Shown here: piece after piece, positions 24,148 through 43,731 of the stretch | Layout: each line of letters begins with the position of its first letter | Position numbering within the stretch: the first letter of the stretch is position 1 | Source: Candidatus Latescibacterota bacterium | GTDB taxonomy: Bacteria; Latescibacterota; UBA2968; UBA8231 | Assembly: GCA_965197905.1 (NCBI GenBank) | Contig: CBDAOB010000005.1 | Location: forward strand, 480,001 to 544,000 | Reading direction: 5' to 3' | DNA length: 64,000 bases | Program-made: the position numbers and the translations under genes | Notes under the pieces: model-generated | What the model was told of the DNA's origin: nothing | The model's database searches: none | Seen by the model: only the letters and a program-made list of their open reading frames with translations

Positions 24148-24218
24148 GCCACTCGCGTTGCAGCCGGATTTCGCGACAATTCCTCGGCCTCGCGACAAAA
24201 CGCATTTCACCACGCCCC

Positions 24219-26319: not shown

Positions 26320-26320
26320 G

Positions 26321-28264
26321 GTGCGTTTGAACAGCGACGCACCGTTGAGCCAAAATCGCTCAATTACCCTGCGCGCTTTTCTGCTGGGTCTGATCACATG
26401 CGCCGGGATTCTCTACTTCATCATCCAGGTGGGCCAGGGCTTGAAGTCGGGCAACTTCGTCAAGTCCCAGTACCCCATCGTAGCGTTCATGCCATTCGTG
26501 TTGTGGCTCTTTCTCAATACCTTGCTCAAACGGTTGTGGCCTTTCGTAGCGCTGCGCCAGGGGGAGCTGCTGGCGATCTTTGCCATGCTGTGGGTGGTGG
26601 GTACCATGCCGCAGCTGGGCTGGGCCACCTACTGGACGAGCACCCTAGCGCATCCCGTCTTTCATGCTACGCCGGAGAATCGATATGCCGAACTCCTCCT
26701 GCAGTACCTTCCCTGGCACGTGCTCCCCGACGCGTCACCGAGGGTGACCGAGCGGCTCTGGCTCGGGCTTCCGGAAGGTATGGATATTCCGTGGGACGGG
26801 TGGTACCGTCCCTTGGGACATTGGCTGGCAGTCTCAGTGGCGATGGTTGTGTTCGGATTCTGTCTGATGGTTCTGTTCCAGAAGCAGTGGGAGCACGTGG
26901 AAAAGCTGGCCTTCCCCCTGGCCCAGATGCCGCGGGATTTGACAGAAGGATTCGACGGATCAGGACGCATGCCAGAGTTGTTCCGATCGCGGCTGTTCTG
27001 GATCGGATTCGCCGTGGTTTTCTCGGTTTTCTGCTACAACATCATCACGTATTTCACGCCGGGTATGACGCCGGCCACCATCTACTGGAAGCGCTACAGC
27101 CTGGAATTCGGGGAGTACCACCCGGTGTCGATCCGGATCCAGCCGCTGGTGATGGCGTTTACCTACCTGTGCCCGCTAGACATCCTTGCCAGCCTGATCC
27201 TGTTCTATTTGATCCACATGCTCAAATTCGGATTCATGCAACGATTCGGCGTGGCGCTTGGAGAGGCTGGTCAGGAGCTCCCACCGTGGGAGATTCTGTC
27301 GTTGGAAGCGAACGGCGCTCTTTTCCTGGTGGCAGTGTGGTCGATCTGGATCGCCCGCGGGCACCTAAGCCAGGTCTGGCACCTGGTGAGAACGGGGAGG
27401 GGCGAAAAGCATGAGGTCATTCGCTATCGGCTCGCTCTCGCGGGAATACTGCTATCGGCACTGTTCACGATCGCCTGGGGCGTCAATCTGGGAATGAGCG
27501 CTTCGACGGCGACCCTGGCATTTGGCCTCATCGCCCTATCCTATTTCGTGACGGTGAAGCTGATCGCCGCCACTGGTTTTGGACCCGCTTTTCCGCGTTA
27601 CGAAAAAGGCACCCTGATCGTCGAGGATTTGATCGGCTCAAGCCACCTTTCGCCGCGGGGGTTGGTGGCCTTCGAACTGTTCTCCAGCCCCGCTTTTTTT
27701 GGTGGTGGCCGTATCCAAACCTGGACGACTATTACACACTACCTGCGATTGTTCTCTCTGCGCCGGCAGCCCGTGTGGGTGCCGCTGGCGATTCTGGCGA
27801 CCTTTGTGTTCGGGTTTCTGGTAGCCGTCGGCAATACCATATCACTGGCGTACAACGACGGCGGGGCACTTCACCTCCATGCCCACGGACAGGGGGTGTA
27901 CGACCACATGGTGAGACTTCTGGAGAATCCCAAGTCATCCGATCTGGCAAAGTGGGGAGTTTGGTTGTGGGGCTTTTTCGAAGCGGGCATCCTTGCGTTC
28001 ATGCGCAGTCGTTTCCATTGGTTTCCGTTCCATCCGATCGGATTGGCCCTGCAAAACAGCATCGGCTCCCAACTCTACTGGGTCCCCTTGGCGCTGGTTC
28101 TGGTCGTAAAGGCGATTCTGTTGCGCTATGGTGGTGTTCAGGCATTCGTGGCCGGCAAGCCTTTCTTCTACGGTTTGGGAGTAGCATACGTCGCCGGTGT
28201 CGTCGCTTCCCTTTGCGTCGATCTAGTCTGGTTCCCTGTCGGCCACGTCGTGCACGGGTGGTAG
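26321..28264 (+). CDS. DUF6785/DUF6784-like polytopic membrane protein (putative transporter), copy 1
   Basis: 647 aa with many TM helices; ITLRAFLLG, ATPEN, KQW...EKL.FPLAQ.P, WFPFHPIG, LRYGG.......PFF.GL motifs. Confidence 0.75.
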   Translation: MRLNSDAPLSQNRSITLRAFLLGLITCAGILYFIIQVGQGLKSGNFVKSQYPIVAFMPFVLWLFLNTLLKRLWPFVALRQGELLAIFAMLWVVGTMPQLGWATYWTSTLAHPVFHATPENRYAELLLQYLPWHVLPDASPRVTERLWLGLPEGMDIPWDGWYRPLGHWLAVSVAMVVFGFCLMVLFQKQWEHVEKLAFPLAQMPRDLTEGFDGSGRMPELFRSRLFWIGFAVVFSVFCYNIITYFTPGMTPATIYWKRYSLEFGEYHPVSIRIQPLVMAFTYLCPLDILASLILFYLIHMLKFGFMQRFGVALGEAGQELPPWEILSLEANGALFLVAVWSIWIARGHLSQVWHLVRTGRGEKHEVIRYRLALAGILLSALFTIAWGVNLGMSASTATLAFGLIALSYFVTVKLIAATGFGPAFPRYEKGTLIVEDLIGSSHLSPRGLVAFELFSSPAFFGGGRIQTWTTITHYLRLFSLRRQPVWVPLAILATFVFGFLVAVGNTISLAYNDGGALHLHAHGQGVYDHMVRLLENPKSSDLAKWGVWLWGFFEAGILAFMRSRFHWFPFHPIGLALQNSIGSQLYWVPLALVLVVKAILLRYGGVQAFVAGKPFFYGLGVAYVAGVVASLCVDLVWFPVGHVVHGW

Positions 28265-28303
28265 GCTTCGCGTCAATGAGGTGTCTATCGAGTCTGCGTG
28301 ACG

Positions 28304-29959: not shown

Positions 29960-30210
29960 TATACCTTCCTGGACGATCCCCGATTCTTTGAGAACTTCGG
30001 AGGTTTTGAGCCGGACGACACACAGCTCCGTCGGCGCCTCGATTTCAGTATCGATGAGCCGGATGCACTACACCCCTGCGTTTGGATCAATGGGAGATTT
30101 GGCCGCAATTCAAACTGCCCTATTTGAAGTTGATCGACGCGGATGCGGACCACCTCAACATCTTCGTCGGCGCGCTCATCGGGTTCACCTAATACGGGGT
30201 ACTCTTTTGA
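29960..30210 (+). pseudogene. Heavily decayed family A 3' remnant
   Basis: Fragments YTFLDDP..GFE, RRRLDF, EIWPQFKLPYLKLIDADAD and LNIFVGALIGFT*YGVLF*, with frameshifts and TAA at 30190; nucleotide similarity to 25830-25953 and 26260-26319. Confidence 0.7.
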
Positions 30211-30211
30211 G

Positions 30212-32155
30212 GTGCGTTTGAACAGCGATGCACCTTTGAGCCAGCATCGCTCAATCACCCTGCGCGCCTTTCTGTTGGGGCTGCTCACCTGCGCCGGGAT
30301 TCTCTACTTCATCATCCAGGTGGGCCAGGGCATGAAGTCGGGCAGCTTCGTCAAGTCCCAATACCCCATCGTGGCGTTCATGCCGTTCGTGCTGTGGTTG
30401 TTCCTCAACACCGCGCTCAAGCGGCTGTGGCCCTTCGTGGCCCTGCGCCAGGGAGAGCTGCTGGCGATCTTTGCCATGCTCTGGGTGGTGGGTACCATGC
30501 CGCAGCTGGGCTGGGTCACCTACTGGACGAGCACAGTAGCGGGTCCCGCGTACCACGCGACGCCCGAGAACAGATGGGCAGACCTGCTCTACGACTACAT
30601 CCCCTGGCACGTGTTGCCGGATACTTCGCAGCGGGTCACCGAACTCCTCTGGTTGGGCTTGCCGGAGGGCATGGAGATTCCTTGGGACGGCTGGATCCGT
30701 CCCATCTTCCATTGGCTTGGTGTGTCGGTTGCGATGGTCATCTTCGGCTTCTGTCTGATGATGCTCTTTCAGAAGCAGTGGCAGGATGGCGAGAAGTTGA
30801 ATTTTCCACTGGCGATGATGCCGCGAGACCTGACGCAGGGATTCGACGGTGAAGGCAGGATGCCGGAGATCTTCCGCTCGCGCCTGTTCTGGATCGGCTT
30901 TTTGGTGGTTTTCCTGGTCTACGCCTACAACATAGTCACCTATTTCACGCCGGGGATGACGGCGACCACCATCTACCTGGAACGCTATGACTGGGAGCTC
31001 GGAGAGTTCCATTCGGTGATCATTCGGGTTCAGCCATTGGTGATGGCGTTCACCTACCTGTGCCCGGTGGATATCCTCGCCAGCCTGATTCTGATCTACC
31101 TGATCTACATGCTGAAATACGGTTTCATGCGGCGATTCGGCGTGGCGATCGGGGAAGAGGGTCAGGAGCTCAAATCGTGGGAAATCCTGTCGCTGGAGGC
31201 GAACGGCGCGCTCTTTCTGATCGCGTTCTGGTCCATCTGGCTTGCCCGCGGCCACCTGCGTCGGGCCTGGCGATCGGCACGGTTCGGCGAGGGAGCTGAT
31301 GTGGATGTGACGCGGTATCGGTGGGCGATCGTCGGCATGGTTCTTTCGGCGATCTTTGTTATCGGCTGGGGGGTCAGTATCGGCATGGACATCGGTACGG
31401 CGACGCTTGCGTTCACCCTGATCGCTCTGACCTATTTCGTCACGGTCAAGCTGATCGCCGCCACCGGCTTTGGTCCCACCTTTCCCAAAGACTCCAAGGG
31501 GATACTGATCGTCGAGGATCTGATCGGTTCCAGCCAACTTGCCCCGCGCAGTCTGGTGGCGTTCAAGATATTCTCCAGTCACGCTTTCTTTGGCGGCGGG
31601 CGAGTACAGGCATGGAACGCGATCGCCCACCATCTTCATCTGTTCTCGGTGTCTCGCCAACCGATCTGGGTTCCGACGCTGATCGTGGCGACCTTCGCCT
31701 TCGGATTCCTAGTAGCCGCCGGCAACACGATCTCGCTGGCCTACCACGAAAGCGGATCGCTCTACCTCTACAACGCCGGGCACGAGATCTACGACCAGAT
31801 GGTGAAGCTGCTCGACAATCCGAAATCCTCCGGTCTGGCGACGCGGGGGGTATGGCTCTGGGGGTTCTTCGAGGCAGGGGCTCTGGCGTTCATTCGCAGC
31901 CGTTTCCACTGGTTTCCCTTCCACCCGATCGGTATCGCACTGCAGACCAGCCTAGGCAGCGCGGTTTACTGGTTCAGCCTGCTTCTCGTGCTGATTGCAA
32001 AGGTGATTCTACTGCGCTACGGCGGCGTTCAGGCGTTTGTGGCCGGCAAGCCGCTCTTCTACGGGCTGGGGGTCGGGTATGTTACCGGCGTCGCCGTTTC
32101 GCTCTGCGTCGATCTGATCTGGTTTCCAGTGGGACACCGTGTGCATGACTGGTGA
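30212..32155 (+). CDS. DUF6785/DUF6784-like membrane protein, copy 2 (close duplicate of 26321)
   Basis: GTG start equivalent to 26321; same 1944-nt length; collinear. Confidence 0.78.
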   Translation: MRLNSDAPLSQHRSITLRAFLLGLLTCAGILYFIIQVGQGMKSGSFVKSQYPIVAFMPFVLWLFLNTALKRLWPFVALRQGELLAIFAMLWVVGTMPQLGWVTYWTSTVAGPAYHATPENRWADLLYDYIPWHVLPDTSQRVTELLWLGLPEGMEIPWDGWIRPIFHWLGVSVAMVIFGFCLMMLFQKQWQDGEKLNFPLAMMPRDLTQGFDGEGRMPEIFRSRLFWIGFLVVFLVYAYNIVTYFTPGMTATTIYLERYDWELGEFHSVIIRVQPLVMAFTYLCPVDILASLILIYLIYMLKYGFMRRFGVAIGEEGQELKSWEILSLEANGALFLIAFWSIWLARGHLRRAWRSARFGEGADVDVTRYRWAIVGMVLSAIFVIGWGVSIGMDIGTATLAFTLIALTYFVTVKLIAATGFGPTFPKDSKGILIVEDLIGSSQLAPRSLVAFKIFSSHAFFGGGRVQAWNAIAHHLHLFSVSRQPIWVPTLIVATFAFGFLVAAGNTISLAYHESGSLYLYNAGHEIYDQMVKLLDNPKSSGLATRGVWLWGFFEAGALAFIRSRFHWFPFHPIGIALQTSLGSAVYWFSLLLVLIAKVILLRYGGVQAFVAGKPLFYGLGVGYVTGVAVSLCVDLIWFPVGHRVHDW

Positions 32156-35100
32156 TCCGCACAAAGAGTCCAGATCGTTGATAGATCGCAATCGGCTCGA
32201 TCGCCGATCCCAGTCGTGCAGGTGCGCGGCGGCAATCGCCTGCTTGCTGCTGCTCTATGGATTGCCGGCGAAGGCCGCGACCGATCGAATTGAAACGACT
32301 ATTCGCCACCTCAGCGGAATGGGATCCCGGGTCGCCGGATATCCCGGTTGCGACAGCGCCGCTGCGTTCATAGAGGCGGAATTTCGCGCCATGGGACTGG
32401 AGCGCGTACGCCGCGAGCAATTCCCGATCACCGTGCCCATGGACAAAGGGGGGCGACTGCGAGTGGGGGACGAGGAGATTCCACTCTACGGTTTGTGGCC
32501 GAACCTGGTCCGCACGTCCACGGTGCCGCCCGACGGGTTGAACGCGCCGATGATCTACGGCGGCAATGGGGATTGGACCGATTTCGACGGTAAAGAGATG
32601 GAGGGACGTCTCGTCCTTCTGGAGTTCAACAGCGAGGATCGCTGGTTGCACGCGGGTGCGCTGGGTGCGCGGGCGGTGGTATTCATCGAGCCGGAGACGA
32701 GCACCTGGCTGCAGGCGAACGAGAAATACATCGACCTACCGCTCGATTTGCCTCGATACTGGATCGACCGGGCCAGCGGTATCGCATTGCGTCAGGAGCT
32801 TCGCGAGGCGGAAGCCCCAGTCAGTCTCTACGGAAGAATGGATTGGGAGGAGCGATCTGCCTGGAATGTCCTGGGCCAGATCTCCGGAACCGATCCCGTT
32901 CTGCGTGACGAGCTCGTGGTTGTTCAAGCGTATTACGACGGCAATTCCGTGGTGCCGGCGCTGGCACCCGCGGCCGAAGCGGCAGCGGGCATCGCCGCTC
33001 TGCTCGAGCTCGGCCGTTATCTTCGCAAGCATCCCCCGGCAAGATCGGTGATTCTACTGGCGACCTCTGCACATTTCCAGCACATGCAAGGTGCGGTGGC
33101 GTTTATGGAACGTCACGCGCGCTTCCATAAAAAATTCGTCGACCGCGTCCCGGAGCCGCTGCCGGTGAAGCTGTTCCTCAGCCTCGATCTTTCCACGCGC
33201 AGCGACCAGCTGGCGATCTGGGGCGGCCACAACAAGCCCGATCTGCGCCGTTTCTACGCTCCGTTCGGCCGTCGCTTCACCGAGTACGCCAGCCAGATCG
33301 CGCCAACGGTGGGCATCGACCCGGAGAGCGCGCTGGTCAACGGGATAAGTCCGATCCGCGGGCTCGAATGGAAGAACTTCGTGCCGGAGGGAATGCCGTC
33401 CGATGCCCAGATGACCCACATCGGCGGTCTCATGTCGCTGGTATTCGCAACTGTTTTCGACGGGCGCTTCCAGCTCGACACCCCTCTCGATCTTCCGGAA
33501 TTCGTCGACTACGGGAGTCTTCGGCGGCAAACGTCGTTGTTACTGCCGCTTGTTAGCAAGGGTCTCAACGACCCGCGTTTATTCACCGATCTAAAGCGGT
33601 TCGGCGCACTGATGACGGACAGATTGCGTCACGACAACCGCAAGCAAAGTGTGGTCCTTGGAGATGGCTTCCGTGACCTGAAGGTGGAGGCGCGCAGATT
33701 CCCGAGAAAGAGCCAGTTACCGGACCAGCCGGTCAAGGACGCGCTGGTGGTTGTCATGCCTGGGGGGCATTACACCACCGAATCGCTGAAAGGAGTTCGT
33801 TTCCCCCGTCTGGCGTATACCGACGACAACGGGAATCTCAACGCTGTGGGGTTTCCGACGGGCGGGAGGAACCTCTCCGCCTACCAGCTGGACCCGGTAA
33901 GCGGCGATGTGTTGATGGCTCCGGATTTGAGTAAACGGTCCGAGGTCCACAACGGCAAAGCGAACGCCGGGGGGGGCTTAAATCTCAACATCCGCTACAA
34001 GCTGAATGAAAAGCTGGTTGTGCTGTTTCCCGCGGTTTCGCAACCGCTTTACAACCTCATCGAACCCCGCTTCGTCGTTCCCATGCTCAAGCTGAAAGCG
34101 CTGGATCCGGCAGGTCGACCCGCACGCCAATTCGGATATGCCCTGCGCGGATCCAGCCGCGAAGGAGCTGGGGTGGTGTTCGGACCACGTGGCGTCGAGC
34201 ATGCGGACCGGCTCAAGCTAGTGGTGGGCCGCGGTCGCATGTTGCTCACCAACAGTCAAGGGGTCGAAAGCGAGGCGCAGTCACGGGGGATCGGTTATCT
34301 CCTGTCCGCAGAGACCCTGGGTCATGCGGCGTGGCTGGGGTTGAGGGACATGTGGTCACTAACCGAAAGCCGACTGCGCACTATGCGACGGCACGCGATC
34401 GAGAACCGACGCCTTTCACATCTACACGAACGGGCCGGTCAGCTTATGGCCGCCGCCGAGGATGCGCGTCTCAACCTGCGATGGTCCGACTACGTGGCCC
34501 ATCTGCGGGCGGCGATCGGCACCGAGGCGCGGGCGTATCCCGACGCTCTCGGCACTCTCAACGACGTCATCAAAGGGCTGGTGTTTTTCCTCGCTCTGGT
34601 CATACCGGCGGCGTTTTTCGCCGAACGTCTGCTGCTGGCGGCGGCAGACATCCGCCGGCAACTGCTCGGGTTCGGACTGCTGCTGCTACTTGTATGGCTA
34701 ATCATTTCGCAGATCCATCCAGCCTTCGCGATCGCCAACCCGATCGTCATTCTCCTGGCCTTCGCGATCATGGCGATGTCGTTCTTCGTACTGACCATGG
34801 TGGTCGGTCGCTTCAATCGCTATATGCGCGACTATCAGCTGAGTGCGGCGCAGGTGCACGAGGCGGATATAAGCCGGGGCGGTGCGCTCTACACCGCGTT
34901 TATGCTTGGAATATCCAACATGCGGCGCCGCAAGCTGCGCACTTGGCTAACCTTCACTACCCTGACCCTGCTCACTTTTACCGTGCTCTCCTTCTCGTCC
35001 TACCGGGACCGAATCCAGTTTTACGGTTTCGGGCTTTGGCGCAGCGGCGCCTACCACGGCGCCCTGGTTCGCAATTGGGATTGGTACGGGCTGGATCTCA

Positions 35101-36659
35101 CCCTGCTGGAATACGTGCGTTCGCACTTCGGGAGCCACGCCCTGCTTAGTCCACGGTGTTGGTACGTGGTGGACTCCCCCGAAGGAGGCAGCACCATGTC
35201 GGTCAACTACGGCGCCGAATCGGTGCAGGCAGGAGGACTCTACGGCGTCAGCGTGGCCGAGTCGGAACTCACCCGATTTGATGCGGCTGTGGTGGCGGGC
35301 TCATGGTTTGAACGCGACGACGAGGCCACCTGTCTGGTCCCAGTCCAAATGGCAAAAAATCTCGGGATAGGCGCCGACGAAATAGGGCGCGCGACGGTCC
35401 AGGTATTCGGCCGCGAGGTGCTGGTCAGGGGGGTAGTCGACGAAAATCGGGTCAAACAAATCTTCGATCTGGACGGAGAGATCCTGACTCCTGTCGATTT
35501 CCACATCCCTACCCAGGATGTCGGCATTGCACAAGAGGAAGCGGAGCGTGCAACCGACCAGTTCTTCGATTTCATGGAACCCCTCGATCACATACCTCCG
35601 GAACAGGTTCTGTATCTTCCGTATCAGACCCTCATGGACTCTGGCGGGGAGCTGCATTCCATTGCGCTTGGGTTCCACGACGGGACGGATGGACTGGGTC
35701 TGGTGAAAGCCTTTCTGCAACGCGTGGACACGACCCTCTTTGCCGGATTCCCTGAACCGGGCACCGATGAGATTCGGGTATACTCCTACGGCTCTGCGGG
35801 GATGACCTCCATTGAAGGGCTGGGGAAGCTGGTCATACCGATGGTGATCGCCGCCCTCATAGTTTTGAACACGATGCTGGGAGCGGTGTACGAACGCAGT
35901 CGCGAGATCGGTATCTACTCTTCGGTAGGGCTTGCGCCGGCTCACATAGCCATGCTTTTCATCGCCGAAGCCTGTGTCTATGCGGTGCTGGGAATAACGG
36001 CCGGTTACATCCTTGGGCAGGGGACGGGGAAGCTGCTACTGGCGGCTGGTCTCTCCACCGGCGTCAACCTCAACTACTCCTCGCTGGCCGCCGTTGCTTC
36101 GGCGCTGTTGGTGATGGCCATCGTGCTGCTCTCGACCGTCTATCCCGCGCGCCTCGCGGCGCGAGCGGCGGTGCCGGACGTTGTGCGCCGGTGGAAGCCG
36201 CCAGCTACCGACGGCGACCGTTGGAGCTTCCAGTTCCCATTCATGGTCAACGCCGCCGAGGTCGTGGGCGTCTGCGGATTTCTGCACAGCTACTTCTCGG
36301 CCTACAGCGAGGAATCGTTGGGTACCTTCTACGCCGACAAGACGCGTATCGTTGGCGAGACTGGCGAACTCGGCGAAGAGTTCGGGCTGCAGATGGTGAT
36401 CTGGCTGGCGCCCTTCGACATGGGGGTGAGTCAGTACTTGCAGATCGCTTTTGCGCCGACGGATTCTGCCTCGATTTGTTCTATCGAGATTTTCATACAG
36501 CGCATCAGCGGCCAGGATGCGTTCTGGAAAAGCACCAACCAGCGTTTCATGAACGGCCTGCGTAAGGAGTTTCTCATCTGGCACACCCTCGACGCCAGAT
36601 CCAAGGAAGAACACCGGCAAACGGCACTGCACCAGCTTGCCCTTGCGGAGGCGAGATGA
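32145..36659 (+). CDS. Fusion of degenerate M28 peptidase/PA domain with FtsX/MacB-type permease (~1500 aa)
   Basis: Signal-peptide-like segment; SRVAGYPG, NVLGQISG.DP.L.DE.VVV.A.YD; TM block; SNMRRRKLRT; FtsX motif VYERSREIGIYSSVG...I...FIAEA. Start codon uncertain. Confidence 0.8.
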   Translation: MTGDPHKESRSLIDRNRLDRRSQSCRCAAAIACLLLLYGLPAKAATDRIETTIRHLSGMGSRVAGYPGCDSAAAFIEAEFRAMGLERVRREQFPITVPMDKGGRLRVGDEEIPLYGLWPNLVRTSTVPPDGLNAPMIYGGNGDWTDFDGKEMEGRLVLLEFNSEDRWLHAGALGARAVVFIEPETSTWLQANEKYIDLPLDLPRYWIDRASGIALRQELREAEAPVSLYGRMDWEERSAWNVLGQISGTDPVLRDELVVVQAYYDGNSVVPALAPAAEAAAGIAALLELGRYLRKHPPARSVILLATSAHFQHMQGAVAFMERHARFHKKFVDRVPEPLPVKLFLSLDLSTRSDQLAIWGGHNKPDLRRFYAPFGRRFTEYASQIAPTVGIDPESALVNGISPIRGLEWKNFVPEGMPSDAQMTHIGGLMSLVFATVFDGRFQLDTPLDLPEFVDYGSLRRQTSLLLPLVSKGLNDPRLFTDLKRFGALMTDRLRHDNRKQSVVLGDGFRDLKVEARRFPRKSQLPDQPVKDALVVVMPGGHYTTESLKGVRFPRLAYTDDNGNLNAVGFPTGGRNLSAYQLDPVSGDVLMAPDLSKRSEVHNGKANAGGGLNLNIRYKLNEKLVVLFPAVSQPLYNLIEPRFVVPMLKLKALDPAGRPARQFGYALRGSSREGAGVVFGPRGVEHADRLKLVVGRGRMLLTNSQGVESEAQSRGIGYLLSAETLGHAAWLGLRDMWSLTESRLRTMRRHAIENRRLSHLHERAGQLMAAAEDARLNLRWSDYVAHLRAAIGTEARAYPDALGTLNDVIKGLVFFLALVIPAAFFAERLLLAAADIRRQLLGFGLLLLLVWLIISQIHPAFAIANPIVILLAFAIMAMSFFVLTMVVGRFNRYMRDYQLSAAQVHEADISRGGALYTAFMLGISNMRRRKLRTWLTFTTLTLLTFTVLSFSSYRDRIQFYGFGLWRSGAYHGALVRNWDWYGLDLTLLEYVRSHFGSHALLSPRCWYVVDSPEGGSTMSVNYGAESVQAGGLYGVSVAESELTRFDAAVVAGSWFERDDEATCLVPVQMAKNLGIGADEIGRATVQVFGREVLVRGVVDENRVKQIFDLDGEILTPVDFHIPTQDVGIAQEEAERATDQFFDFMEPLDHIPPEQVLYLPYQTLMDSGGELHSIALGFHDGTDGLGLVKAFLQRVDTTLFAGFPEPGTDEIRVYSYGSAGMTSIEGLGKLVIPMVIAALIVLNTMLGAVYERSREIGIYSSVGLAPAHIAMLFIAEACVYAVLGITAGYILGQGTGKLLLAAGLSTGVNLNYSSLAAVASALLVMAIVLLSTVYPARLAARAAVPDVVRRWKPPATDGDRWSFQFPFMVNAAEVVGVCGFLHSYFSAYSEESLGTFYADKTRIVGETGELGEEFGLQMVIWLAPFDMGVSQYLQIAFAPTDSASICSIEIFIQRISGQDAFWKSTNQRFMNGLRKEFLIWHTLDARSKEEHRQTALHQLALAEAR

Positions 36660-36723
36660 TCGGCAGTGGCAGCCGAGACCTACCGTGTCGTGGACCCGCC
36701 CCAGCCTCGCGGGAGCCCTAACC

Positions 36724-39387
36724 ATGGCACGTCGCGATCGCAAGATGCGTCAATGGGAGGAGGTGGAGGAGTACCGCGGCCTGCTGGAGGCGCCCAACCG
36801 CTTCGAGACCGGGTTCACCCTGCGCACAGTTATCGGGGTTCTCTTCATCTCCCTGATCATGACACCCGGAGAGATGTATCTCGGCCTGGTTACCGGCGGC
36901 AGCATCGGGGCAGCCGCTCAATGGGTTACCGTGATTCTGTTCCTGGAGGTGGCCAAACGCTCGTTCACCTCGCTGCGGCGGCAGGAGATCTATCTCCTGG
37001 TCTACGTGGCGTCGGCGTTAGTGGCGCGCGAGGAGGGGGCGTTTCTCGATCTGCTATGGCGTCAGTATTTCGTCACCTCGGCGGAAGCCGATCAGTTCGG
37101 CATCTCCCGCCTTCTTCCCTGGTGGTGGGTCCCAGACCCGGATTCGGAGGCGATCGCCGAACGCACCTTTCTGCATAGCGACTGGCTCGTTCCGATCCTG
37201 CTCCTGATCATGGGCACGATCGTCGGTCGCATCGCCTGGTTTACCTCCGGGTACATGCTGTTCCGTCTGACCTCCGATAAGGAGCAGCTCCCTTTTCCCA
37301 CCGCCCCCATGTCAGCGCTCTCCTCCATGGCGTTGGCGGAAGAGAGCGGTGATGAGAGGGAGTCCTGGAAATGGCCGGTTTTCAGTATCGGTGGCGCCAT
37401 TGGCGCGGTATTCGGAGTGGTATACGTAGGGATTCCCACGGTCACCGAGATCATGGGCAAGAAGTCGACCCTGATTCCGATTCCGTTTGCCGACTTCACC
37501 CCTTATTTCGGCAATTTCATACCCGCGGCCCCACTGGGCATCACCTTGCATCTGGGGCCTATCTTTGCCGGTCTGCTAATGCCGTTCTGGGCGGTGATCG
37601 GCTCTTTTGCGGGCGTCGTCGCACACATCGCCGCCAGTCCCTTCCTTTACGACATGGGGTTGCTGCCGCGGTGGGAGGTGGGCATGGACACGATCCGCAC
37701 CCAGATCGCCACCGGGATCGATTTCTGGCGCGCCTTCTCCATCGGCGTCACCATCGCCGTCACCATCATCAGTTTCTATCAACTTTTCGCCACTGGGCGC
37801 GAGAAGCGGTTGGAGGTCCGCGAAAAGCTGGAAGGAGAGCGCTCGAGCTACCCCGACACCTGCCAGCACGATGGGTGCTCTCGTCCTTCCAAGGTGCGGG
37901 GTCTCTGTCTAACTCACCTGGGCCGCGGTGACTTCAACCTGTGGGCGTGCGCTGCCTTGTTTTGCGTGGCCGCCATCTATCCAATCATCCTCGCAAAAGC
38001 TCTTTTTCCGACCCTAATGAGCGTCGGAATGCTGGTGACCTTCGTGCTGATCGCCTTCCTCTATGCTCCGATCATGTCGTTCGTGAGCGCCCGGCTGGAC
38101 GGGCTTATCGGACGCGAGGTCGCCGTACCCTACATCAACGAAGCGGTGATCTTCCTGACCGGTTATCGCGGCGTGGATGTCTGGTTCGTGCCCTTTCCAA
38201 CCCGCAACTACGGCGGCCACGCGGAAGGTTTCCGCGTGGTTGAGCTCACCGGTATGCGCTTTACCAGCCTGCTCAAGGCGGAGCTGTTCATGATTCCAAT
38301 CGTCTTCGGCGTCAGCCTGATGTACTGGACCTTTCTCTGGCGTCTGGCGCCGATTCCCTCCGACAGCTACCCGTACGCCCAAATGATGTGGCCGCTGCGG
38401 GCGTTTGATCAGGCGCTGTTCTTTTCGAGCACGATGTATTCCCGCAACTGGCGTGCGGGTGAGGAGGTGGAGGGTGAGGTGCTCGGCAGTGGGCATGCGG
38501 CTTGGAGCCCGAGTAATCTCCAGGATCGGCGGTGGTGGTACTGGCGCGCACGCTGTACCACTGATGTCCACATACCTGATCCGCAGAAACGCACTTACGG
38601 CAAGTGGTCGAAGATCGGTTATTTCTACACCGACCTGGACCGCAGCGGTCCTCCTGAACGGATCGCTGTGCCGTTAAAGGGGGGACTCCAAGAATTCACT
38701 CCGGAGACCAAATCCGCGGCGGAGCCAGCGGTGGTGGTTGGTGAGCTTGCTGCGCCACGCCTGCTGTGGCCCCCTGATGGCAGCGGCGTGGCCACCGTAA
38801 ACCCGAATTTTCGCGTGCAGGCCGCGCTAGCTCGCAACGACAGCATCGAGTTTTACTTCGAGGTGGATCGAGTCCCCACCTTCGACGGCCAGTTCCGTTC
38901 CAATTCCGCTGAGCGCCCGCTCCTCTTCCAGGTGCTTTGGGAGGACCTGAAGTATACCGGCGATCTGCGCGACGACGACGGCGACGGTCGCGTCGATGAG
39001 GAGGTGGTAAACGGGAGAGACGACGACGGCGACAAGCTGATCGACGAGGATGTCCATCATCCCTTCGGAGGACTCAAATGGCCAATCATCGCCATCGGGG
39101 CCGGATTCGGGCTGTTCGCCTACTTCCTGCTCTCCTTCTTCGGCATGCCGATATTTCTGATCTGGGGGTACGTGCAGAGTGTCAACGGCATACCTCACAC
39201 CTTGCTGCCCCAGATCATCGGCGCTTTGCTGGCCCGATTCTATTTCTGGAAGCGGTACGGAAAACAGGAGTGGCGGCGCTACGCCATGGTGCTGGCGGTC
39301 GGTTTCGGGGTAGGCATGGCCTTGATCGGCATGTTCTGCGCCGCTCTGGCGATGATCAGCAAGGCGGTCTCCTCCCTTTCCTATTGA
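36724..39387 (+). CDS. OPT-family-like peptide transporter with zinc-finger motif and large soluble insertion
   Basis: Start moved to ATG 36724 (GGGAG upstream); GFTLRTVIG, YL.L..G, E.LPFP.A motifs resemble the OPT/YSL-like fold; many TM helices. Confidence 0.65.
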   Translation: MARRDRKMRQWEEVEEYRGLLEAPNRFETGFTLRTVIGVLFISLIMTPGEMYLGLVTGGSIGAAAQWVTVILFLEVAKRSFTSLRRQEIYLLVYVASALVAREEGAFLDLLWRQYFVTSAEADQFGISRLLPWWWVPDPDSEAIAERTFLHSDWLVPILLLIMGTIVGRIAWFTSGYMLFRLTSDKEQLPFPTAPMSALSSMALAEESGDERESWKWPVFSIGGAIGAVFGVVYVGIPTVTEIMGKKSTLIPIPFADFTPYFGNFIPAAPLGITLHLGPIFAGLLMPFWAVIGSFAGVVAHIAASPFLYDMGLLPRWEVGMDTIRTQIATGIDFWRAFSIGVTIAVTIISFYQLFATGREKRLEVREKLEGERSSYPDTCQHDGCSRPSKVRGLCLTHLGRGDFNLWACAALFCVAAIYPIILAKALFPTLMSVGMLVTFVLIAFLYAPIMSFVSARLDGLIGREVAVPYINEAVIFLTGYRGVDVWFVPFPTRNYGGHAEGFRVVELTGMRFTSLLKAELFMIPIVFGVSLMYWTFLWRLAPIPSDSYPYAQMMWPLRAFDQALFFSSTMYSRNWRAGEEVEGEVLGSGHAAWSPSNLQDRRWWYWRARCTTDVHIPDPQKRTYGKWSKIGYFYTDLDRSGPPERIAVPLKGGLQEFTPETKSAAEPAVVVGELAAPRLLWPPDGSGVATVNPNFRVQAALARNDSIEFYFEVDRVPTFDGQFRSNSAERPLLFQVLWEDLKYTGDLRDDDGDGRVDEEVVNGRDDDGDKLIDEDVHHPFGGLKWPIIAIGAGFGLFAYFLLSFFGMPIFLIWGYVQSVNGIPHTLLPQIIGALLARFYFWKRYGKQEWRRYAMVLAVGFGVGMALIGMFCAALAMISKAVSSLSY

Positions 39388-39406: not shown

Positions 39407-41551
39407 ATGAACAAACAGATTCCCGAACACCTGCGCGCCTCTAGCAGCGAAACGGACGCATCGGTCGACCGCAAGGGTTCTGCGGATAACGTGGGCCAGC
39501 TGCGACTACGCGCTTTGCTCGTGGGCTTACTGCTGATCTCGTTCCTCACGGTGGGAGCAGCTCACGTCGAGATCCTTCTGCGCAGCGCCTACATGACTGT
39601 TAACGCCAGTACCGTCGGTGCCTTCGCCCTGCTGTTTTTTCTCGTCGGTGGTTTGAATGTTCTCTTGAAGGTGGGGTCGAGCCTGCGAGCGGCTACACTC
39701 ATGGCATGCGCCGCATGGGGCCTCCTCATGGTGAACTACTGGCCCTTTACCGACTTCGATCTGAGCTCACCCCATCCACTCTTCTGGGTGATGTTGGCAA
39801 CCCTCGCCCTGGCTAATCTCTTCAACGTCGGCCGCGGTAGGGATCTGATCCTCAATCGCTCTGAGCTGGTTCTCATCTATTTCATGTTGCTGGTCGCATC
39901 GGCCGTCTGCACCATGGGTTTGAGCGCCCCGCTATTATCACTGCTGCCGTCACCGTACTACTTTGCCAGCCGCGACAATCTGTGGGCGCAAAAGCTGTTT
40001 CCGCTGTTTCCGGAGCATCGGCTGTTCGTTGACGATGGTTCGGAGAACGTGGCCTTTTACGAAGGCCTGGAGGCTGGCTCCGCGGTTCCCTACGTTGCCT
40101 GGCTCGAACCGTTAGTCTGGTGGGGTGTATTCGTACTTGCAGTGTGTACGACGCTGGTCTGCCTGATGGTGATCGTCCGGCGCCAGTGGATAGAGCACGA
40201 GCGTTTGCCGTATCCTGTGGCTCAGGTGCCGATGTCATTGATCGGCGGGGAACAGAAGGGGCGGCTGCTCAACGATTTTTTCCGCCGCGGCACCATGTGG
40301 TTCGGATGCGCCATACCGATGGTCGTTGGAAGTATGCAGGCGATGTATTGGTACGACCCATCAGTGCCGATGGTACGACTCACCTGGATCTTCAAGTTTT
40401 TTGATACTGAGATACTATCTTGCCATCTCAACTTCCTGCTGCTGGGTTTCTCCTACCTGATCAATACGCAGATCGCCGCCTCCATCTGGATCTTCCACCT
40501 GCTTTACAAAGTGGAGTCTCTGTTGCTTCCAACAAGCGGATTTTTTTCGATCGCCGACGGCAGCGGAGGTACAGGAACTCTCATCGAATTGCAGGGAGGT
40601 GGGGCTTTGCTGGCTATGGCGGCAGCCGGTCTCTGGTTGGCCCGCGATCACCTGCGGTCGGTCGCGGCCGAAGTCCGGAGAAAAAGCGAATCCCCCGGAG
40701 CTGACCGCGAAATCATCTCCTATCGGGCCGCCATTTTCGGTGCGGGTGCGGGCGCCGTTCTGATGACTTGCTGGCTTTGGGTAATGGGTACACCCATGCT
40801 GTTCGCCGTGCTGCTGGTCGTCTTGGGCATGCTCATCTTGTTCGGGATTGCACGCTACGTCAGCGAGACCGGGCTGGTGCTGGCGCGTTCGCCGGTGAGC
40901 GCCCATGGGGTAATCCTGCAATCTGCCGGGAGCGGTCTTCTGGGACCCAGCGGGGTCATGGGGATCTACCTGTCAAGTCTGTGCTGGCAGTCCTATCTGA
41001 TGACAACCTGCGCTACCGGTTTGAAGCTGGTGTCCGAGATGGACCCGTCCAGTCGCCGCCAGGTCTTCAGGGCGTTGGCACTGGCTCTGATCTTCGGCCT
41101 CGCCCTGGGCGCGTATATGATGATTGAGCTGGCCTACCGCTACGGAGGGGTTAACCTTCACGGGAATCTGTTCATCAACGCTCCCAGAAATATCTTCGGA
41201 GACATCCTGCAGAACGCTGAGCCAACCGGTCCGAGTCTGCTCGGCATCGGGTTTCTGGCTAGCGGCGCGGCTACCATGTTGATGTTGATCTGGGCGCGAA
41301 TGCATATTTCCTGGTGGACGCTGAATCCTCTCGGGTTTCCCCTGAGCATGACCCTCGGCGCGGCCTGGTTCAGCGTATTTCTGGCGTGGCTGTTGAAGCG
41401 CCTGATTCTCCGCTACGGCGGGGCTTCCGCGTATCGCCGCCTGCAGCCCTTCTTCCTCGGCCTGATCGTCGGTCAATCTCTATGCATGGTGCTTTGGGTT
41501 GCGATCGGCACGTTTACCGGCCAGACCCAGGTAACGCCGTTCCGCTTCTAG
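39407..41551 (+). CDS. DUF6785/DUF6784-like membrane protein, copy 3
   Basis: LRALLVG, RRQW.EHERL.YP.AQ.P, W..LNPLGF, LRYGG...YRR.QPFF.GL. Confidence 0.75.
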   Translation: MNKQIPEHLRASSSETDASVDRKGSADNVGQLRLRALLVGLLLISFLTVGAAHVEILLRSAYMTVNASTVGAFALLFFLVGGLNVLLKVGSSLRAATLMACAAWGLLMVNYWPFTDFDLSSPHPLFWVMLATLALANLFNVGRGRDLILNRSELVLIYFMLLVASAVCTMGLSAPLLSLLPSPYYFASRDNLWAQKLFPLFPEHRLFVDDGSENVAFYEGLEAGSAVPYVAWLEPLVWWGVFVLAVCTTLVCLMVIVRRQWIEHERLPYPVAQVPMSLIGGEQKGRLLNDFFRRGTMWFGCAIPMVVGSMQAMYWYDPSVPMVRLTWIFKFFDTEILSCHLNFLLLGFSYLINTQIAASIWIFHLLYKVESLLLPTSGFFSIADGSGGTGTLIELQGGGALLAMAAAGLWLARDHLRSVAAEVRRKSESPGADREIISYRAAIFGAGAGAVLMTCWLWVMGTPMLFAVLLVVLGMLILFGIARYVSETGLVLARSPVSAHGVILQSAGSGLLGPSGVMGIYLSSLCWQSYLMTTCATGLKLVSEMDPSSRRQVFRALALALIFGLALGAYMMIELAYRYGGVNLHGNLFINAPRNIFGDILQNAEPTGPSLLGIGFLASGAATMLMLIWARMHISWWTLNPLGFPLSMTLGAAWFSVFLAWLLKRLILRYGGASAYRRLQPFFLGLIVGQSLCMVLWVAIGTFTGQTQVTPFRF

Positions 41552-41571: not shown

Positions 41572-43731
41572 ATGAGACACGAGATTCCCGACTATATTCG
41601 TTCCTTTCTGAATCCGGGATTCGGCGGGGACACAACTACCGAATTCGACAAGTCGAGGATCCGACCGCGAGCCTTTCTGGTTGGTAGCACCTTCAGCTTC
41701 TTCCTCGCCATCGGCGCCCCATACGGCAACATGCTGGTGAAGGGTGCCTACGTCGCCCAGGATGCCACTGCCCCGGGTGCCTTTCTGGTCTTTCTGTTCG
41801 TAGTGGGCTGCCTCAACATGCTCTTCAAGCTCGAAGCTCGCGGCCCGGCCACTGCGCAGAAAGTCGCCGGAGCATCGATTCTACTCTTCATCTGGGCGTT
41901 CTGGCCGCTAGACAGTTTCGATCCGTACTCCCCGCACCTGATCTTCTCCTGTTTGGTTCTTGGTTTGTTGTTGCTCAACGCAGCTCTGGTAATAGGGCGA
42001 GGGAGCGGTCTGACGTTGAATCGTTCGGAGCTGGTATTGGTGTTCATCATGCTGGTGGTGGTGTCGGTCGTCTGCACGCTGGGTCTGAGCTCGACCCTCC
42101 TACCCACCATAACCGGCTTCTACTATTTCGCCACCCCTTCAAATCGATGGTTGAGTCTCGCTCCGCATCTGCCCTCCCACCGGATCCTGGTGGATGACGG
42201 AAACCGCAACACCTCCTTCTACGAAGGACTGGAAGAAGGCGCCGTACCCCCGTACGGGGCCTGGATCGAGCCACTATTGTGGTGGGCGATTCTGATCGGC
42301 GCGGTCTACTGCGTCATGGTCTCGGCGGCGGTGATCCTGCGCCGGCAGTGGATGGATCGGGAGCGCCTTCCGTATCCGCTTGCTCAGGTGCCGCTGGCGC
42401 TTCTCGGCGAGGAGCGCGAGGACCGACTGGTGAACCGCTATCTCAAGAGCCGAATGATGTGGGCCGGGGCCGCCTTGCCTTTGGTGATCGGCAGCTTGAA
42501 GGCATGGTCGGTCTATAATCCGGCAATACTGCGTCCAACCGTCTTCTGGATGTTCAACCCGTTCGACATCTATCACTTCTTCATCATCCAGATCAGCTTC
42601 ATCTGGATCGGCTTCAGCTATTTCATCAACACCAAAATCGCCGCCTCCCTGTGGATCTTCCACCTGCTGTCGAAGCTGGAGGTTCTGGCGATGGTGGGGT
42701 TGGATCTGGACCGCGGCCTGTCCTATGTGCGCGGTTTCAGCCTGGTGCCGTTCATAGGTTACCAGGGATTCGGCGCCCTGATGGCGATGGTCCTGACCGG
42801 GTTGTGGATCGCGCGGGGGCATCTGCGCGAGGTATGGCGCAAGGCCCTGGGCGGTGTCGGGGAGGTCGATGACGCGACCGAGGTTCTTAGCTATCGAAAG
42901 GCGGTTGTAGGCACGATTCTCGGGCTTTCAGTGGCCGTCGTCTGGTTCTGGATCATGGGCATGCCGCTCTGGATCGCCTCGTTGTTCATCGGGATCCTGT
43001 TTCTGACCTTGATCGGCATCAGTCGCTACGTCGCCGAAGCCGGCCTGGTCAGAGTATCTTCGCCGGTGGCCCCTCCCGAGCTGATCTTGAAAACGGTGGG
43101 GACCACCCTAGTGGGGGGTCCGGGCGTGCTTCTGCTGCCTCTCAGCTACGCCTGGGCCCTTACCAACACCAACAACCTGATGAGCGTATTTGCGAGCGGC
43201 CTGCGACTCACCAGCGAAGTGGAGGTCAGGAGTCGTAGATATCTGGCGATCGCCGTCGTACTGGCATTGATCGTGGGCATTGGGGGGGCGTTCTGGATGA
43301 ACATGCACCTGGCCTACCGCTACGGCGGGATCAATCTTCATGGGTCCTATTTTATCAGGTTCCCCGCCGACCATTTCAATATATCAGTGGCGAATCTTGC
43401 GCCAGCGGGTGTCTATTGGGATGGACTCGTATTTGTCGCTGCGGGGGCGGGGATCATGCTGTTGTTGATCCTGGCACAGATGCGGCTGCCGTGGTGGCCG
43501 CTGCACCCGATCGGGTTTCCCGTCGGCATGACCTTGTACTACCCCTGGTTCAACATCTTCGTGGCTTGGCTCGTGAAGGTGTTGGTGCTGAGATATGGAG
43601 GGGCAGCGGCTTACCGGCGAACCCAGCCGTTCTTCTTCGGTCTCATCACCGGACACTGCCTCTGTATAGTGGGATGGATCATCATCGATTCGTTCACCGG
43701 TCAAACCTGGAACATCACGCTGCAGATGTGA
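41572..43731 (+). CDS. DUF6785/DUF6784-like membrane protein, copy 4
   Basis: Same motifs as 39407; WWPLHPIGF; tandem paralog. Confidence 0.75.
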   Translation: MRHEIPDYIRSFLNPGFGGDTTTEFDKSRIRPRAFLVGSTFSFFLAIGAPYGNMLVKGAYVAQDATAPGAFLVFLFVVGCLNMLFKLEARGPATAQKVAGASILLFIWAFWPLDSFDPYSPHLIFSCLVLGLLLLNAALVIGRGSGLTLNRSELVLVFIMLVVVSVVCTLGLSSTLLPTITGFYYFATPSNRWLSLAPHLPSHRILVDDGNRNTSFYEGLEEGAVPPYGAWIEPLLWWAILIGAVYCVMVSAAVILRRQWMDRERLPYPLAQVPLALLGEEREDRLVNRYLKSRMMWAGAALPLVIGSLKAWSVYNPAILRPTVFWMFNPFDIYHFFIIQISFIWIGFSYFINTKIAASLWIFHLLSKLEVLAMVGLDLDRGLSYVRGFSLVPFIGYQGFGALMAMVLTGLWIARGHLREVWRKALGGVGEVDDATEVLSYRKAVVGTILGLSVAVVWFWIMGMPLWIASLFIGILFLTLIGISRYVAEAGLVRVSSPVAPPELILKTVGTTLVGGPGVLLLPLSYAWALTNTNNLMSVFASGLRLTSEVEVRSRRYLAIAVVLALIVGIGGAFWMNMHLAYRYGGINLHGSYFIRFPADHFNISVANLAPAGVYWDGLVFVAAGAGIMLLLILAQMRLPWWPLHPIGFPVGMTLYYPWFNIFVAWLVKVLVLRYGGAAAYRRTQPFFFGLITGHCLCIVGWIIIDSFTGQTWNITLQM

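What the first reader, a model, noticed from the sequence alone, without database searches (positions are those of the whole stretch)
32145..36659. Pseudo-peptidase receptor fused to an FtsX/MacB permease
Seen: the M28-like domain has QAYYD, APAAEAAAGIAALLEL and TSAHFQ. Established: active M28 enzymes have GAHxD, GAxDNxSG and AEE at these positions; transferrin receptor and nicastrin are M28-fold proteins that lost these ligands and became binding domains. Inference: a bacterial nicastrin/TfR-like peptide- or protein-binding ectodomain joined to a helical linker, extra TM helices, a MacB-like periplasmic domain and an FtsX core, i.e. a cargo receptor or sensor rather than a protease.
Basis: partly seen in the sequence, partly recalled or inferred. 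Interest (0 to 1): 0.75.

Follow-up and report, generated by a model that had tools for sequence, protein, structure and literature searches.

The report
Rebuilt peptidase head on ABC motor
A 1,500-residue bacterial membrane protein joins an aminopeptidase-like outer domain, which has lost the usual two-zinc site but keeps a different conserved set of pocket residues, to a MacB/FtsX-type permease, and its gene neighbourhoods indicate that it likely works with a dedicated ATPase and oligopeptide-transporter-like membrane proteins as an unstudied, probably nutrient-importing machine.

Summary
Observation confirmed: one 1504-aa ORF with an M28/PA aminopeptidase fold (AF2 pLDDT 93), a beta-sandwich and helical linker, three extra TM helices, a MacB-type 4-TM core with periplasmic domain, and a cytoplasmic tail. 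The canonical dizinc site is gone: none of 360 homologs keeps the base Glu or the last His, while 18 of 18 control M28 proteins do. But the pocket is rebuilt, not decayed: His310 (357 of 360), an acid at 278 (356), Asp or His at 348 (357) and Arg441 (360) are conserved, so 'receptor, not enzyme' is unproven. It is not shown to be nicastrin- or TfR-like: PA-containing aminopeptidases score higher. The protein is not stand-alone. A single-copy small FtsX plus ATPase pair occurs in 82 of the 88 genomes that have it and 0 of the 13 that lack it. The pair shares its operon in several lineages, along with OPT-superfamily proteins (sometimes fused) and a PqqD-like protein. Best reading: the large subunit of an ATP-driven type VII ABC machine serving OPT-fold importers. 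Physical binding is untested. The scan found this system before on other DNA (ten notes); no paper on it was found.

The parts
32145..36659 (+). Gene for the 1504-aa M28-like/FtsX large subunit
   Evidence: 666 full-length homologs among 8000 candidates scored
32145..32282 (+). Signal-peptide-like N-terminus (basic stretch, hydrophobic core, small-residue end); export inferred
   Evidence: hydropathy; similar N-termini in homologs; no signal-peptide predictor was run
32277..33602 (+). M28-fold domain with inserted PA domain (PA about 32457-32834), residues 45-486
   Evidence: AF2 pLDDT 93, pTM 0.93; 6hc6 Z 31.7, rmsd 5.4, 376 aligned; 1amp Z 28.6, rmsd 2.4, 256 aligned
32931..33479 (+). Rebuilt pocket: Y263 (for His), D265, E278 (at or beside the bridging Asp), H310 (for the base Glu), F311 (for Glu), D348 (kept), R441, D445 (for His)
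   Evidence: register; conservation; coordinates
33660..34319 (+). Transthyretin/CnaB-like beta-sandwich (about residues 506-630) and a second beta-rich domain without a fold match (about 631-725)
   Evidence: 3irp Z 9.9, rmsd 2.7, 106 aligned; 1qmu Z 9.5, rmsd 1.8, 79 aligned; CarboxypepD_reg weak in homologs
34326..34850 (+). Helical linker running into three extra predicted TM helices (residues about 728-902)
34875..36179 (+). MacB/FtsX core: amphipathic helix, TM1, periplasmic domain (35025-35804), TM2, coupling helix (35886-35960), TM3, TM4
   Evidence: 3ftj Z 14.5, rmsd 3.6, 180 aligned; coupling-helix conservation
36213..36593 (+). C-terminal, predicted cytoplasmic alpha/beta domain, weakly helix-grip (START/Aha1-like)
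   Evidence: Z 7.9-8.4 to 1vjh, 3ni8, 8z3j, 4xzv, 6cay; borderline
30143..32155 (+). Upstream DUF6785/DUF6784 membrane protein; its stop overlaps the start of the large gene
   Evidence: distant OPT similarity; fused to the large subunit in 11 of 360 homologs
36637..39387 (+). Downstream OPT-superfamily membrane protein (start probably near 36724); one beside each of the 3 large-subunit paralogs in this genome
   Evidence: C-terminus scores over the PF03169 cut-off (27.8 against 25.8 bits); a relative matches PF03169 117-620 at E 2.8e-12
39407..41551 (+). DUF6785/DUF6784 paralog, same run of genes
41572..43731 (+). DUF6785/DUF6784 paralog, same run of genes
26321..28264 (+). DUF6785/DUF6784 paralog, 76% identical to the upstream neighbour

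Best explanation
The protein is likely the large membrane subunit of an unstudied type VII ABC machine: its M28-like head has lost the canonical dizinc site and likely captures or senses a ligand outside the membrane, while its MacB-type base is predicted to pair with a separately encoded small FtsX protein and ATPase and to pass ATP-driven movement to OPT-fold partner proteins that would form the import path. Shown: fold, loss of ligands, a different conserved residue set, gene linkage and fusions. Inferred: binding of the subunits, a non-catalytic head, direction of transport and cargo (peptide or oligomeric nutrient most likely). One ATPase/small-FtsX pair would serve 3 large subunits and about 38 DUF6785 proteins in this genome. 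Confidence in the narrower claim 'not a canonical dizinc aminopeptidase' is about 0.95, and in 'ATPase-coupled with OPT-fold partners' about 0.75.
For: Ligand loss: base Glu kept in 0 of 360 homologs, last His in 0, first His in 20; at most 3 of 5 ligand-type residues kept. Control: 18 of 18 intact M28 domains keep both His and the acids. Small FtsX: one copy in 82 of 101 genomes, all among the 88 with the large subunit; 0 of the 13 without it; the 6 misses are 60-89% complete. An ATPase lies next to it in 30 of 30 genome loci and 70 of 80 metagenome loci, partial hits included; Walker A/B, signature, Q- and H-loop are intact in this genome's copy. All parts lie in one operon in G003, G005, G011, G016, G035, and the large gene is in 11 of 80 small-FtsX metagenome loci, in at least three gene orders. 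The coupling-helix region has many positions invariant in 103 of 103. OPT-like neighbour in 10 of 13 loci, DUF6785 in 10 of 13; DUF6785 fused in 11 of 360. MacB-type proteins do work outside the membrane rather than carry cargo through it, and heterodimers exist (PMC5985334 passages). DUF6785 genes sit among catabolic genes here.
Against: No physical interaction was tested: the complex predictor was not available. In this genome the ATPase pair lies on another contig among unrelated genes. The co-occurrence rests on one lineage lacking both, so it is about one independent event. The large subunit's coupling helix lacks the basic residue present in the small FtsX. The near-invariant His310, acid 278 and Asp/His348 fit a metal or catalytic site as well as a binding site. 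One of 13 loci (L010) has neither partner nearby. The OPT assignment of DUF6785 is moderate (76%); the OPT-like profile gave only 6% against the same OPT alignment, and neither profile hit a solved OPT structure. The PqqD-like and 293-aa genes are not explained by an import model.
Confidence: 0.45

Rival explanations
1. The head is a rebuilt enzyme, not a passive receptor: Glu278, His310, Asp348 and Asp445 (Asp, Glu, His, His in Desulfobacterota) hold one metal or form a His-acid catalytic pair, and the ABC base feeds it substrate, as YbbAP is proposed to feed TesA; products then enter through the OPT-fold partners.
For: His310 in 357 of 360 and 146 of 150 cluster representatives; acid at 278 in 356 of 360 and 132 of 150; Asp/His at 348 in 357 of 360; Lys194, Arg204 and Arg441 nearly invariant at 26-33% domain identity. 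In Desulfobacterota 348 changes to another metal-capable residue, His (119 of 120). The PDB title of 2anp calls a Glu151-to-His mutant of the Aeromonas aminopeptidase functional (title only). Glutaminyl cyclases share the fold (Z 24-26); that they use one zinc is recalled. YbbAP-TesA precedent: PMC12646458 abstract and Discussion.
Against: Both His ligands are lost in 340 of 360; 445 is Gly in 122 of 360; 278 is non-acidic in 18 of 150 representatives. No side-chain geometry could be read from the model.
Confidence: 0.27
2. The machine exports or matures a peptide or protein: the PqqD-like subunit binds a peptide in the cytoplasm, and the head is a chaperone-like docking site, or it helps fold the many OPT-fold membrane proteins, as nicalin does in the multipass translocon (role recalled).
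For: PqqD hits at E 7.5e-12 to 1.7e-10, linked to the small FtsX or OPT gene in several lineages, one copy per genome like the ATPase. Nicalin matches the core motif with the same loop length (E 1.3e-6). Known type VII systems export, extract or activate rather than import.
Against: No precursor peptide or modifying enzyme was noted in the operons examined (not searched for specifically). Nicalin is not among the 50 best fold matches listed and scores about the same as active enzymes by profile. Known OPT members are importers (recalled).
Confidence: 0.15
3. The machine acts on the cell wall, FtsEX-style: it binds peptidoglycan fragments and recycles them through the OPT-fold partners, or regulates a wall hydrolase.
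For: LysM or Ig-like N-terminal extensions in 6 of the 12 long relatives scanned (LysM 2, Big_5 4); LysM on 19% of members of one Atlas cluster; near-universal presence in the phylum sample (88 of 101).
Against: No wall or division genes were noted next to the operon; the window protein has no LysM; 38 DUF6785 paralogs point to many cargoes.
Confidence: 0.09
4. It is an ordinary membrane-anchored M28 aminopeptidase, as database names such as 'M28 family peptidase' imply.
For: Fold and Pfam match; source names.
Against: Three of five zinc ligands and the base Glu are replaced in this protein, and no homolog keeps the full set.
Confidence: 0.04

Closest known systems
Type VII ABC transporters: MacB, LolCDE, FtsEX, YtrEF, HrtBA, BceAB
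   Same: Amphipathic helix, four TM helices, large periplasmic domain between TM1 and TM2, coupling helix between TM2 and TM3; a separate ATPase gene and a second permease, as in LolCDE.
   Different: An 800-residue N-terminal ectodomain, three extra TM helices, a C-terminal alpha/beta domain, a partner permease of 229 aa with almost no periplasmic domain, and OPT-fold partners.
YbbAP-TesA (E. coli)
   Same: A type VII ABC paired with an extracytoplasmic hydrolase-type domain (PMC12646458).
   Different: TesA is a separate, active esterase; here the hydrolase-fold domain is fused, M28-type, and lacks its canonical site.
PA-domain M28 aminopeptidases (B. subtilis 6hc6, Aneurinibacillus 2ek8, P. 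aeruginosa PaAP; Aeromonas 1amp for the core)
   Same: Best fold and profile matches over the whole head, PA insert included.
   Different: His, Glu-Glu and His of the dizinc site are replaced by Tyr, His-Phe and Asp; fused to a polytopic permease.
Nicalin, transferrin receptor 1, nicastrin (non-catalytic M28-fold ectodomains; their roles are recalled)
   Same: M28 fold with lost zinc ligands; nicalin shares the loop length after the first-ligand motif (E 1.3e-6); TfR E 2e-4 and Z 25.9, rmsd 7.0, 385 aligned; nicastrin E 0.6.
   Different: They are eukaryotic single-pass proteins; the substitutions differ; none outranks the best active aminopeptidases; orthology was not tested.
OPT/YSL transporters (PF03169)
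   Same: The downstream neighbour and, more weakly, DUF6785 belong to this superfamily.
   Different: Known OPTs are proton-coupled and work without an ABC partner (recalled); here they are linked or fused to a type VII ABC subunit.
ECF transporters with a shared energising module (recalled)
   Same: Logic only: one ATPase module and many candidate substrate-specific membrane subunits (1: 3: 38 in this genome).
   Different: No sequence or fold relation was found or tested; sharing of the module is inferred.

Membership tests
M28 dizinc aminopeptidases | Zn-exopeptidase alpha/beta fold | tested here: met
   1amp Z 28.6, rmsd 2.4, 256 aligned; 6hc6 Z 31.7, rmsd 5.4, 376 aligned
M28 dizinc aminopeptidases | First His ligand (HxD) | tested here: not met
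   Y263; His in 20 of 360 homologs
M28 dizinc aminopeptidases | Bridging Asp (GAxD) | tested here: inconclusive
   E278 with a one-residue deletion; register differs by one between alignments; Glu 239, Asp 117 of 360
M28 dizinc aminopeptidases | Glu-Glu (general base and ligand) | tested here: not met
   H310-F311; base Glu in 0 of 360 and 0 of 150
M28 dizinc aminopeptidases | Strand-end Asp/Glu ligand | tested here: met
   D348; Asp 238, His 119 of 360
M28 dizinc aminopeptidases | Last His ligand | tested here: not met
   D445; His in 0 of 360; 1 of 150, in a fragment whose match ends before this column
M28 dizinc aminopeptidases | Metal binding and peptidase activity | not testable with these tools
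Nicastrin / nicalin / transferrin receptor | Match to Pfam Nicastrin over its cut-off | tested here: not met
   no hit in the window protein; 1 of 16 at E 0.13; 2 of 7 divergent large subunits at E 0.0034 and 0.039, below cut-off and below M28
Nicastrin / nicalin / transferrin receptor | Closer by fold to these than to active M28 enzymes | tested here: inconclusive
   TfR Z 25.9 against 27-30 for aminopeptidases; no tree was built
Nicastrin / nicalin / transferrin receptor | Single-pass membrane topology | tested here: not met
   seven predicted TM helices after the ectodomain
Nicastrin / nicalin / transferrin receptor | Non-catalytic binding of a protein or peptide | not testable with these tools
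   needs binding assay
Type VII ABC (MacB/FtsX) permeases | 4-TM core with large periplasmic domain between TM1 and TM2 | tested here: met
   3ftj Z 14.5, rmsd 3.6, 180 aligned
Type VII ABC (MacB/FtsX) permeases | Coupling helix between TM2 and TM3 | tested here: met
   model helix at residues 1252-1260; flanking motif conserved in 103 homologs
Type VII ABC (MacB/FtsX) permeases | A cognate ABC ATPase gene with intact motifs | tested here: met
   same operon in 5 genomes and several metagenome loci; on another contig in this genome; gene-level evidence only
Type VII ABC (MacB/FtsX) permeases | Dimer of permease units engaging two ATPase subunits | not tested
Type VII ABC (MacB/FtsX) permeases | ATP-driven mechanotransmission | not testable with these tools
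   needs structures or assays
OPT superfamily (neighbour 36637-39387) | Match to PF03169 | tested here: met
   C-terminal stretch over cut-off in the genome search, though the full-library scans did not list it; relative L121 E 2.8e-12 over profile 117-620
OPT superfamily (DUF6785 neighbours) | Full-length homology to OPT proteins | tested here: inconclusive
   hhalign 76%, E 2.2e-5, 442 columns; 92% to the OPT-like neighbour over 198 columns; no fold was predicted

The most novel reading that the evidence does not exclude
A new class of modular importer: one type VII ABC motor (ATPase, small FtsX, large pseudo-peptidase subunit) drives dozens of interchangeable OPT-fold carriers, turning a secondary-transporter fold into ATP-powered, receptor-fed uptake units; the rebuilt M28 head is a bacterial counterpart of nicalin-type ectodomains.
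Probability: 0.25. Interest if true: 0.88.

Novelty: new variant of a known kind. Interest (0 to 1): 0.62.

Why it matters
Type VII ABC proteins are known as exporters, extractors and enzyme activators, and OPT proteins as stand-alone carriers; a machine that couples the two was not found in the papers searched. The family is large (1100 proteins, one per 50%-identity cluster, at E up to 1e-30 with the head-domain profile; how many are full family members was checked only for the best 150). It is near-universal in the Latescibacterota sample, where the partner family is expanded to about 38 genes in this genome, so it could account for much of their nutrient uptake. Databases call many members 'M28 family peptidase', which the residues do not support. 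It is testable: cultured Desulfococcus multivorans DSM 2059 and Desulfonema ishimotonii encode the large subunit.

Tried and rejected
Rejected: sequencing artefact or lone decayed gene (666 full-length homologs, same substitutions). Rejected: canonical M28 activity. Rejected: 'ATPase-less'. Not supported: specific kinship with nicastrin; nicastrin and nicalin are absent from the 50 rows listed in both VIA searches, which is inconclusive, not exclusion. No verdict: prediction of the complex between the large subunit's membrane part and the small FtsX was not available. No ATPase, small-FtsX, PqqD or OPT-like fusion was found among 150 representatives; no OPT-like fusion among the proteins held. 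PDB sequence searches with the OPT-like and DUF6785 profiles found nothing relevant. hhalign of the OPT-like alignment against bona fide OPTs was weak (6%). No match in plasmids at E 1e-15. The GTDB contig scan with the single protein gave only 2 loci. The 293-aa operon protein has no Pfam match. Literature: DUF6785, 0 papers; Latescibacter/M28/FtsX, 4 papers with two of three terms, none on this by listing; nicalin plus prokaryote terms, 0; nicalin/aminopeptidase/zinc, 6 irrelevant by listing; oligopeptide transporter/FtsX/PqqD, 0; type VII terms, 46 papers, 15 listed, none on this by title and abstract start; Latescibacterota transporter terms, 1, listing only; D. multivorans proteome terms, 4, listing only. 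PMC5109826: no term found in the main text or the one supplement held as text; other supplements and subscription journals were not visible and could mention the operon.


Full report
Observation. The interval is one ORF on the + strand, ATG 32145 to stop 36659, 1504 aa. The three quoted motifs start at residues 261, 274 and 307. Pfam finds Peptidase_M28 (241-378, E 1e-8) and FtsX (1232-1340, E 1.3e-12), both over cut-off. The protein has 666 full-length relatives among the 8000 candidates scored; the named ones are mostly Latescibacterota. This genome holds three paralogs.

Anatomy. An AF2 model of residues 45-486 (90 sequences, pLDDT 93, pTM 0.93) matches PA-domain M28 aminopeptidases best: 6hc6 Z 31.7 (rmsd 5.4, 376 aligned), 2ek8 Z 30.1 (7.8, 384), and the core of 1amp Z 28.6 (2.4, 256). 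A model of residues 487-1504 (104 sequences, pLDDT 85.8, pTM 0.78) shows, in order: a transthyretin/CnaB-like beta-sandwich (Z 9-10), a second beta-rich domain without a fold match, three helices running into three extra TM helices, then a full MacB unit, and a C-terminal alpha/beta domain with borderline helix-grip matches (Z about 8). The MacB unit has the amphipathic helix, TM1, periplasmic domain (3ftj Z 14.5, rmsd 3.6, 180 aligned), TM2, coupling helix, TM3 and TM4. A signal-like N-terminus and an odd number of extra helices place the head outside the cytoplasm (inference).

The active site. A profile of 16 diverse heads aligns to 18 intact M28 domains at 99.05%. Y263 stands at the first His, H310-F311 at Glu-Glu, D348 at the strand-end Asp and D445 at the last His. 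E278 stands at the bridging Asp or next to it, because the loop is one residue shorter. The two-zinc core with one His and one terminal carboxylate per metal and a bridging Asp is described in PMC4320195 (passages); PMC3426542 (passages) states that these residues are conserved across M28. In 360 homologs from three searches (the best 120 of each) the base Glu is kept in 0, the last His in 0 and the first His in 20; none keeps more than 3 of 5 ligand-type residues. The control set keeps both His in 18 of 18. In the 150 best 50%-identity representatives the base Glu is again absent; one last-His call falls outside that fragment's matched stretch. The canonical site is lost.

His310 is kept in 357 of 360 and 146 of 150, an acid at 278 in 356 of 360 and 132 of 150, Asp or His at 348 in 357 of 360, Arg441 and Trp409 in 360 of 360, and Lys194 and Arg204 of the PA region in 358 and 351. 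Median column conservation in the first 240 was 0.51. In the Desulfobacterota-type group (26-33% identical in this domain) the set becomes Asp278, Glu279, His310, His348, Gly445. That is as compatible with one metal or a His-acid pair as with a binding site. The PDB title of 2anp calls the Glu-to-His change at this position functional in the Aeromonas enzyme (title only).

Nicastrin or TfR? The head profile ranks 2ek8 (5e-14), 6hc6 (5e-10), 2anp (7e-7), nicalin (1.3e-6), wild-type Aeromonas enzyme (3e-5), TfR (2e-4) and nicastrin (0.6). Pfam Nicastrin is hit by 1 of 16 heads at E 0.13 and by 2 of 7 divergent large subunits below cut-off. TfR scores Z 25.9, under the aminopeptidases. So it may work like these ectodomains but is not shown to belong with them. 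The nicalin match, with the same loop length after the first-ligand motif, is a lead for a tree that I did not build.

The system. In the window the gene overlaps the stop of a DUF6785/6784 gene and is followed by a 916-aa membrane protein and two more DUF6785 genes. The 916-aa protein scores over the OPT cut-off at its C-terminus, a relative matches most of the OPT profile (E 2.8e-12), and it is homologous to DUF6785 (92%). DUF6785 against true OPTs gives 76% over 442 columns; the 916-aa family against the same set gives only 6%. Of 13 fetched loci with the large gene, 10 have the OPT-like gene, 10 a DUF6785 gene and 1 neither. DUF6785 is fused to the large subunit in 11 of 360 homologs.

The motor. 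In G003, G005, G011, G016 and G035 the operon continues with a 293-aa unknown, a PqqD-family protein, a 228-aa FtsX protein and an ABC ATPase. The small FtsX is single-copy in 82 of 101 genomes of the phylum sample. All 82 are among the 88 genomes with the large subunit; the 13 genomes of family f9 have neither (best E for the large subunit 1.5e-8 to 1.5e-5); the 6 other misses are 60-89% complete. This is about one independent loss, so it is support, not a statistic. The ATPase follows the small FtsX in 30 of 30 genome loci and 70 of 80 metagenome loci, partial hits included. The large gene is present in 11 of those 80, many of which are short contigs, in at least three gene orders. This genome's pair lies at C4:1.906-1.908 Mb among unrelated genes, with intact ATPase motifs. 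Counts here: 1 ATPase pair, 1 PqqD-like, 3 large subunits, 3 OPT-like, 38 DUF6785 ORFs scoring over 200 bits among 43 hits. The family extends to Desulfobacterota, including two cultured species, and to a record named as Planctomycetes.

Mechanism. MacB-type proteins use ATP to do work on the outer side and do not carry cargo across their own membrane; heterodimers such as LolCE exist (PMC5985334, passages). I therefore infer a heterodimer of large and small FtsX on an ATPase dimer, whose movement is passed to OPT-fold partners that form the path, with the head capturing or sensing cargo (0.45). Rivals: a rebuilt enzyme fed by the ABC base, as proposed for YbbAP-TesA (PMC12646458, abstract and Discussion) (0.27); peptide export or membrane-protein assembly, which would explain PqqD and the nicalin likeness (0.15); a cell-wall role, suggested by LysM extensions in some relatives (0.09); a canonical peptidase (0.04). 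Cargo and direction are inferred from the OPT fold and from neighbouring sulfatase, glycoside-hydrolase-like and aldolase-family genes.

Novelty. The searches found no paper on this system (listings only, except as noted). PMC4454575 (passages) mentions M28 only as a peptidase family, and PMC5109826 has none of the terms in its text or in the one supplement held. Subscription journals were not searched. The scan's own notes describe the same system on other DNA ten times; three call it ATPase-less or without a nearby ATPase, and one infers an ATPase elsewhere, which my tests agree with. Recalled, not from a call: the roles of nicalin, nicastrin and TfR, the single zinc of glutaminyl cyclases, proton coupling of OPTs, peptide binding by PqqD-like domains, and shared ECF modules. 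Verdict: real, widespread and unstudied; a new variant of type VII ABC systems, with a 0.25 chance of being a new class of modular importer. Interest 0.62.

Noticed in passing
window 680-3448, 9252-12212, 46664-49603 (-), pieces at 43732-46595 (-) and 25474-26319: A family of about 980-aa, probably secreted proteins with no Pfam hit over cut-off (weak SlpA beta-barrel); 65 ORF frames in the genome. 18 of 38 DUF6785 genes lie within 15 kb of one, against a mean of 6.7 and maximum of 15 in 1000 random placements (clustered genes are not independent). Possibly outer-membrane partners of the DUF6785 carriers.
   Followed up: partly
window 43732-46595 (-): One copy of that family is split over two ORFs in different frames (618 and 383 aa): frameshift or assembly error.
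   Followed up: no
L007:10001-10648: A close relative's genome keeps only residues 47-262 of the large subunit at this locus and lacks the OPT-like and two DUF6785 genes that follow in the window: apparent deletion.
   Followed up: no
window 36637-39387: The OPT-like protein carries inserts: a Cys3-His zinc-finger-like stretch (residues 409-427, E 0.008) and Asp-rich repeats near residues 780-805 resembling calcium-binding loops; a homolog (L019) has PDZ domains there.
   Followed up: no
P0399, P0415, P0453, P0396, P0473, P0461: Relatives up to 3053 aa with Ig-like (Big_5) or LysM extensions in front of the M28-like head.
   Followed up: partly
L008:6210-7569 (G000:C5 about 2.455-2.457 Mb): This genome's only PqqD-like gene and the 336-aa homolog of the 293-aa unknown follow a second large-subunit operon, whose DUF6785 gene is split in two ORFs.
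   Followed up: partly
L014:5520-6233, L015:12609-13319: A TPR protein lies between DUF6785 and the large gene in the complete operons of two lineages.
   Followed up: no
window 19957-29824: Catabolic neighbours: GH95-like (19957-22548), sulfatase (22636-24147), DHDPS-family aldolase (24219-25100) and a 506-aa protein without a Pfam hit that has 48 related ORFs in the genome.
   Followed up: no
window 49737-51599 and 59648-61624: Two proteins with FlgD-Ig/T9SS-like C-terminal sorting domains; 17 related ORFs in the genome.
   Followed up: no
window 3473-9245: A long TPR-like protein, a DUF4159 protein and a protein with a weak TonB C-terminal match (E 0.013) lie between two of the 980-aa genes.
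   Followed up: no
ESM Atlas rows: Archaeal (Thermoproteota) FtsX clusters of 965-1076 aa without an M28 family, and a 1109-aa M28 cluster without FtsX, score 0.77-0.84: possible split or related forms, leads only.
   Followed up: no
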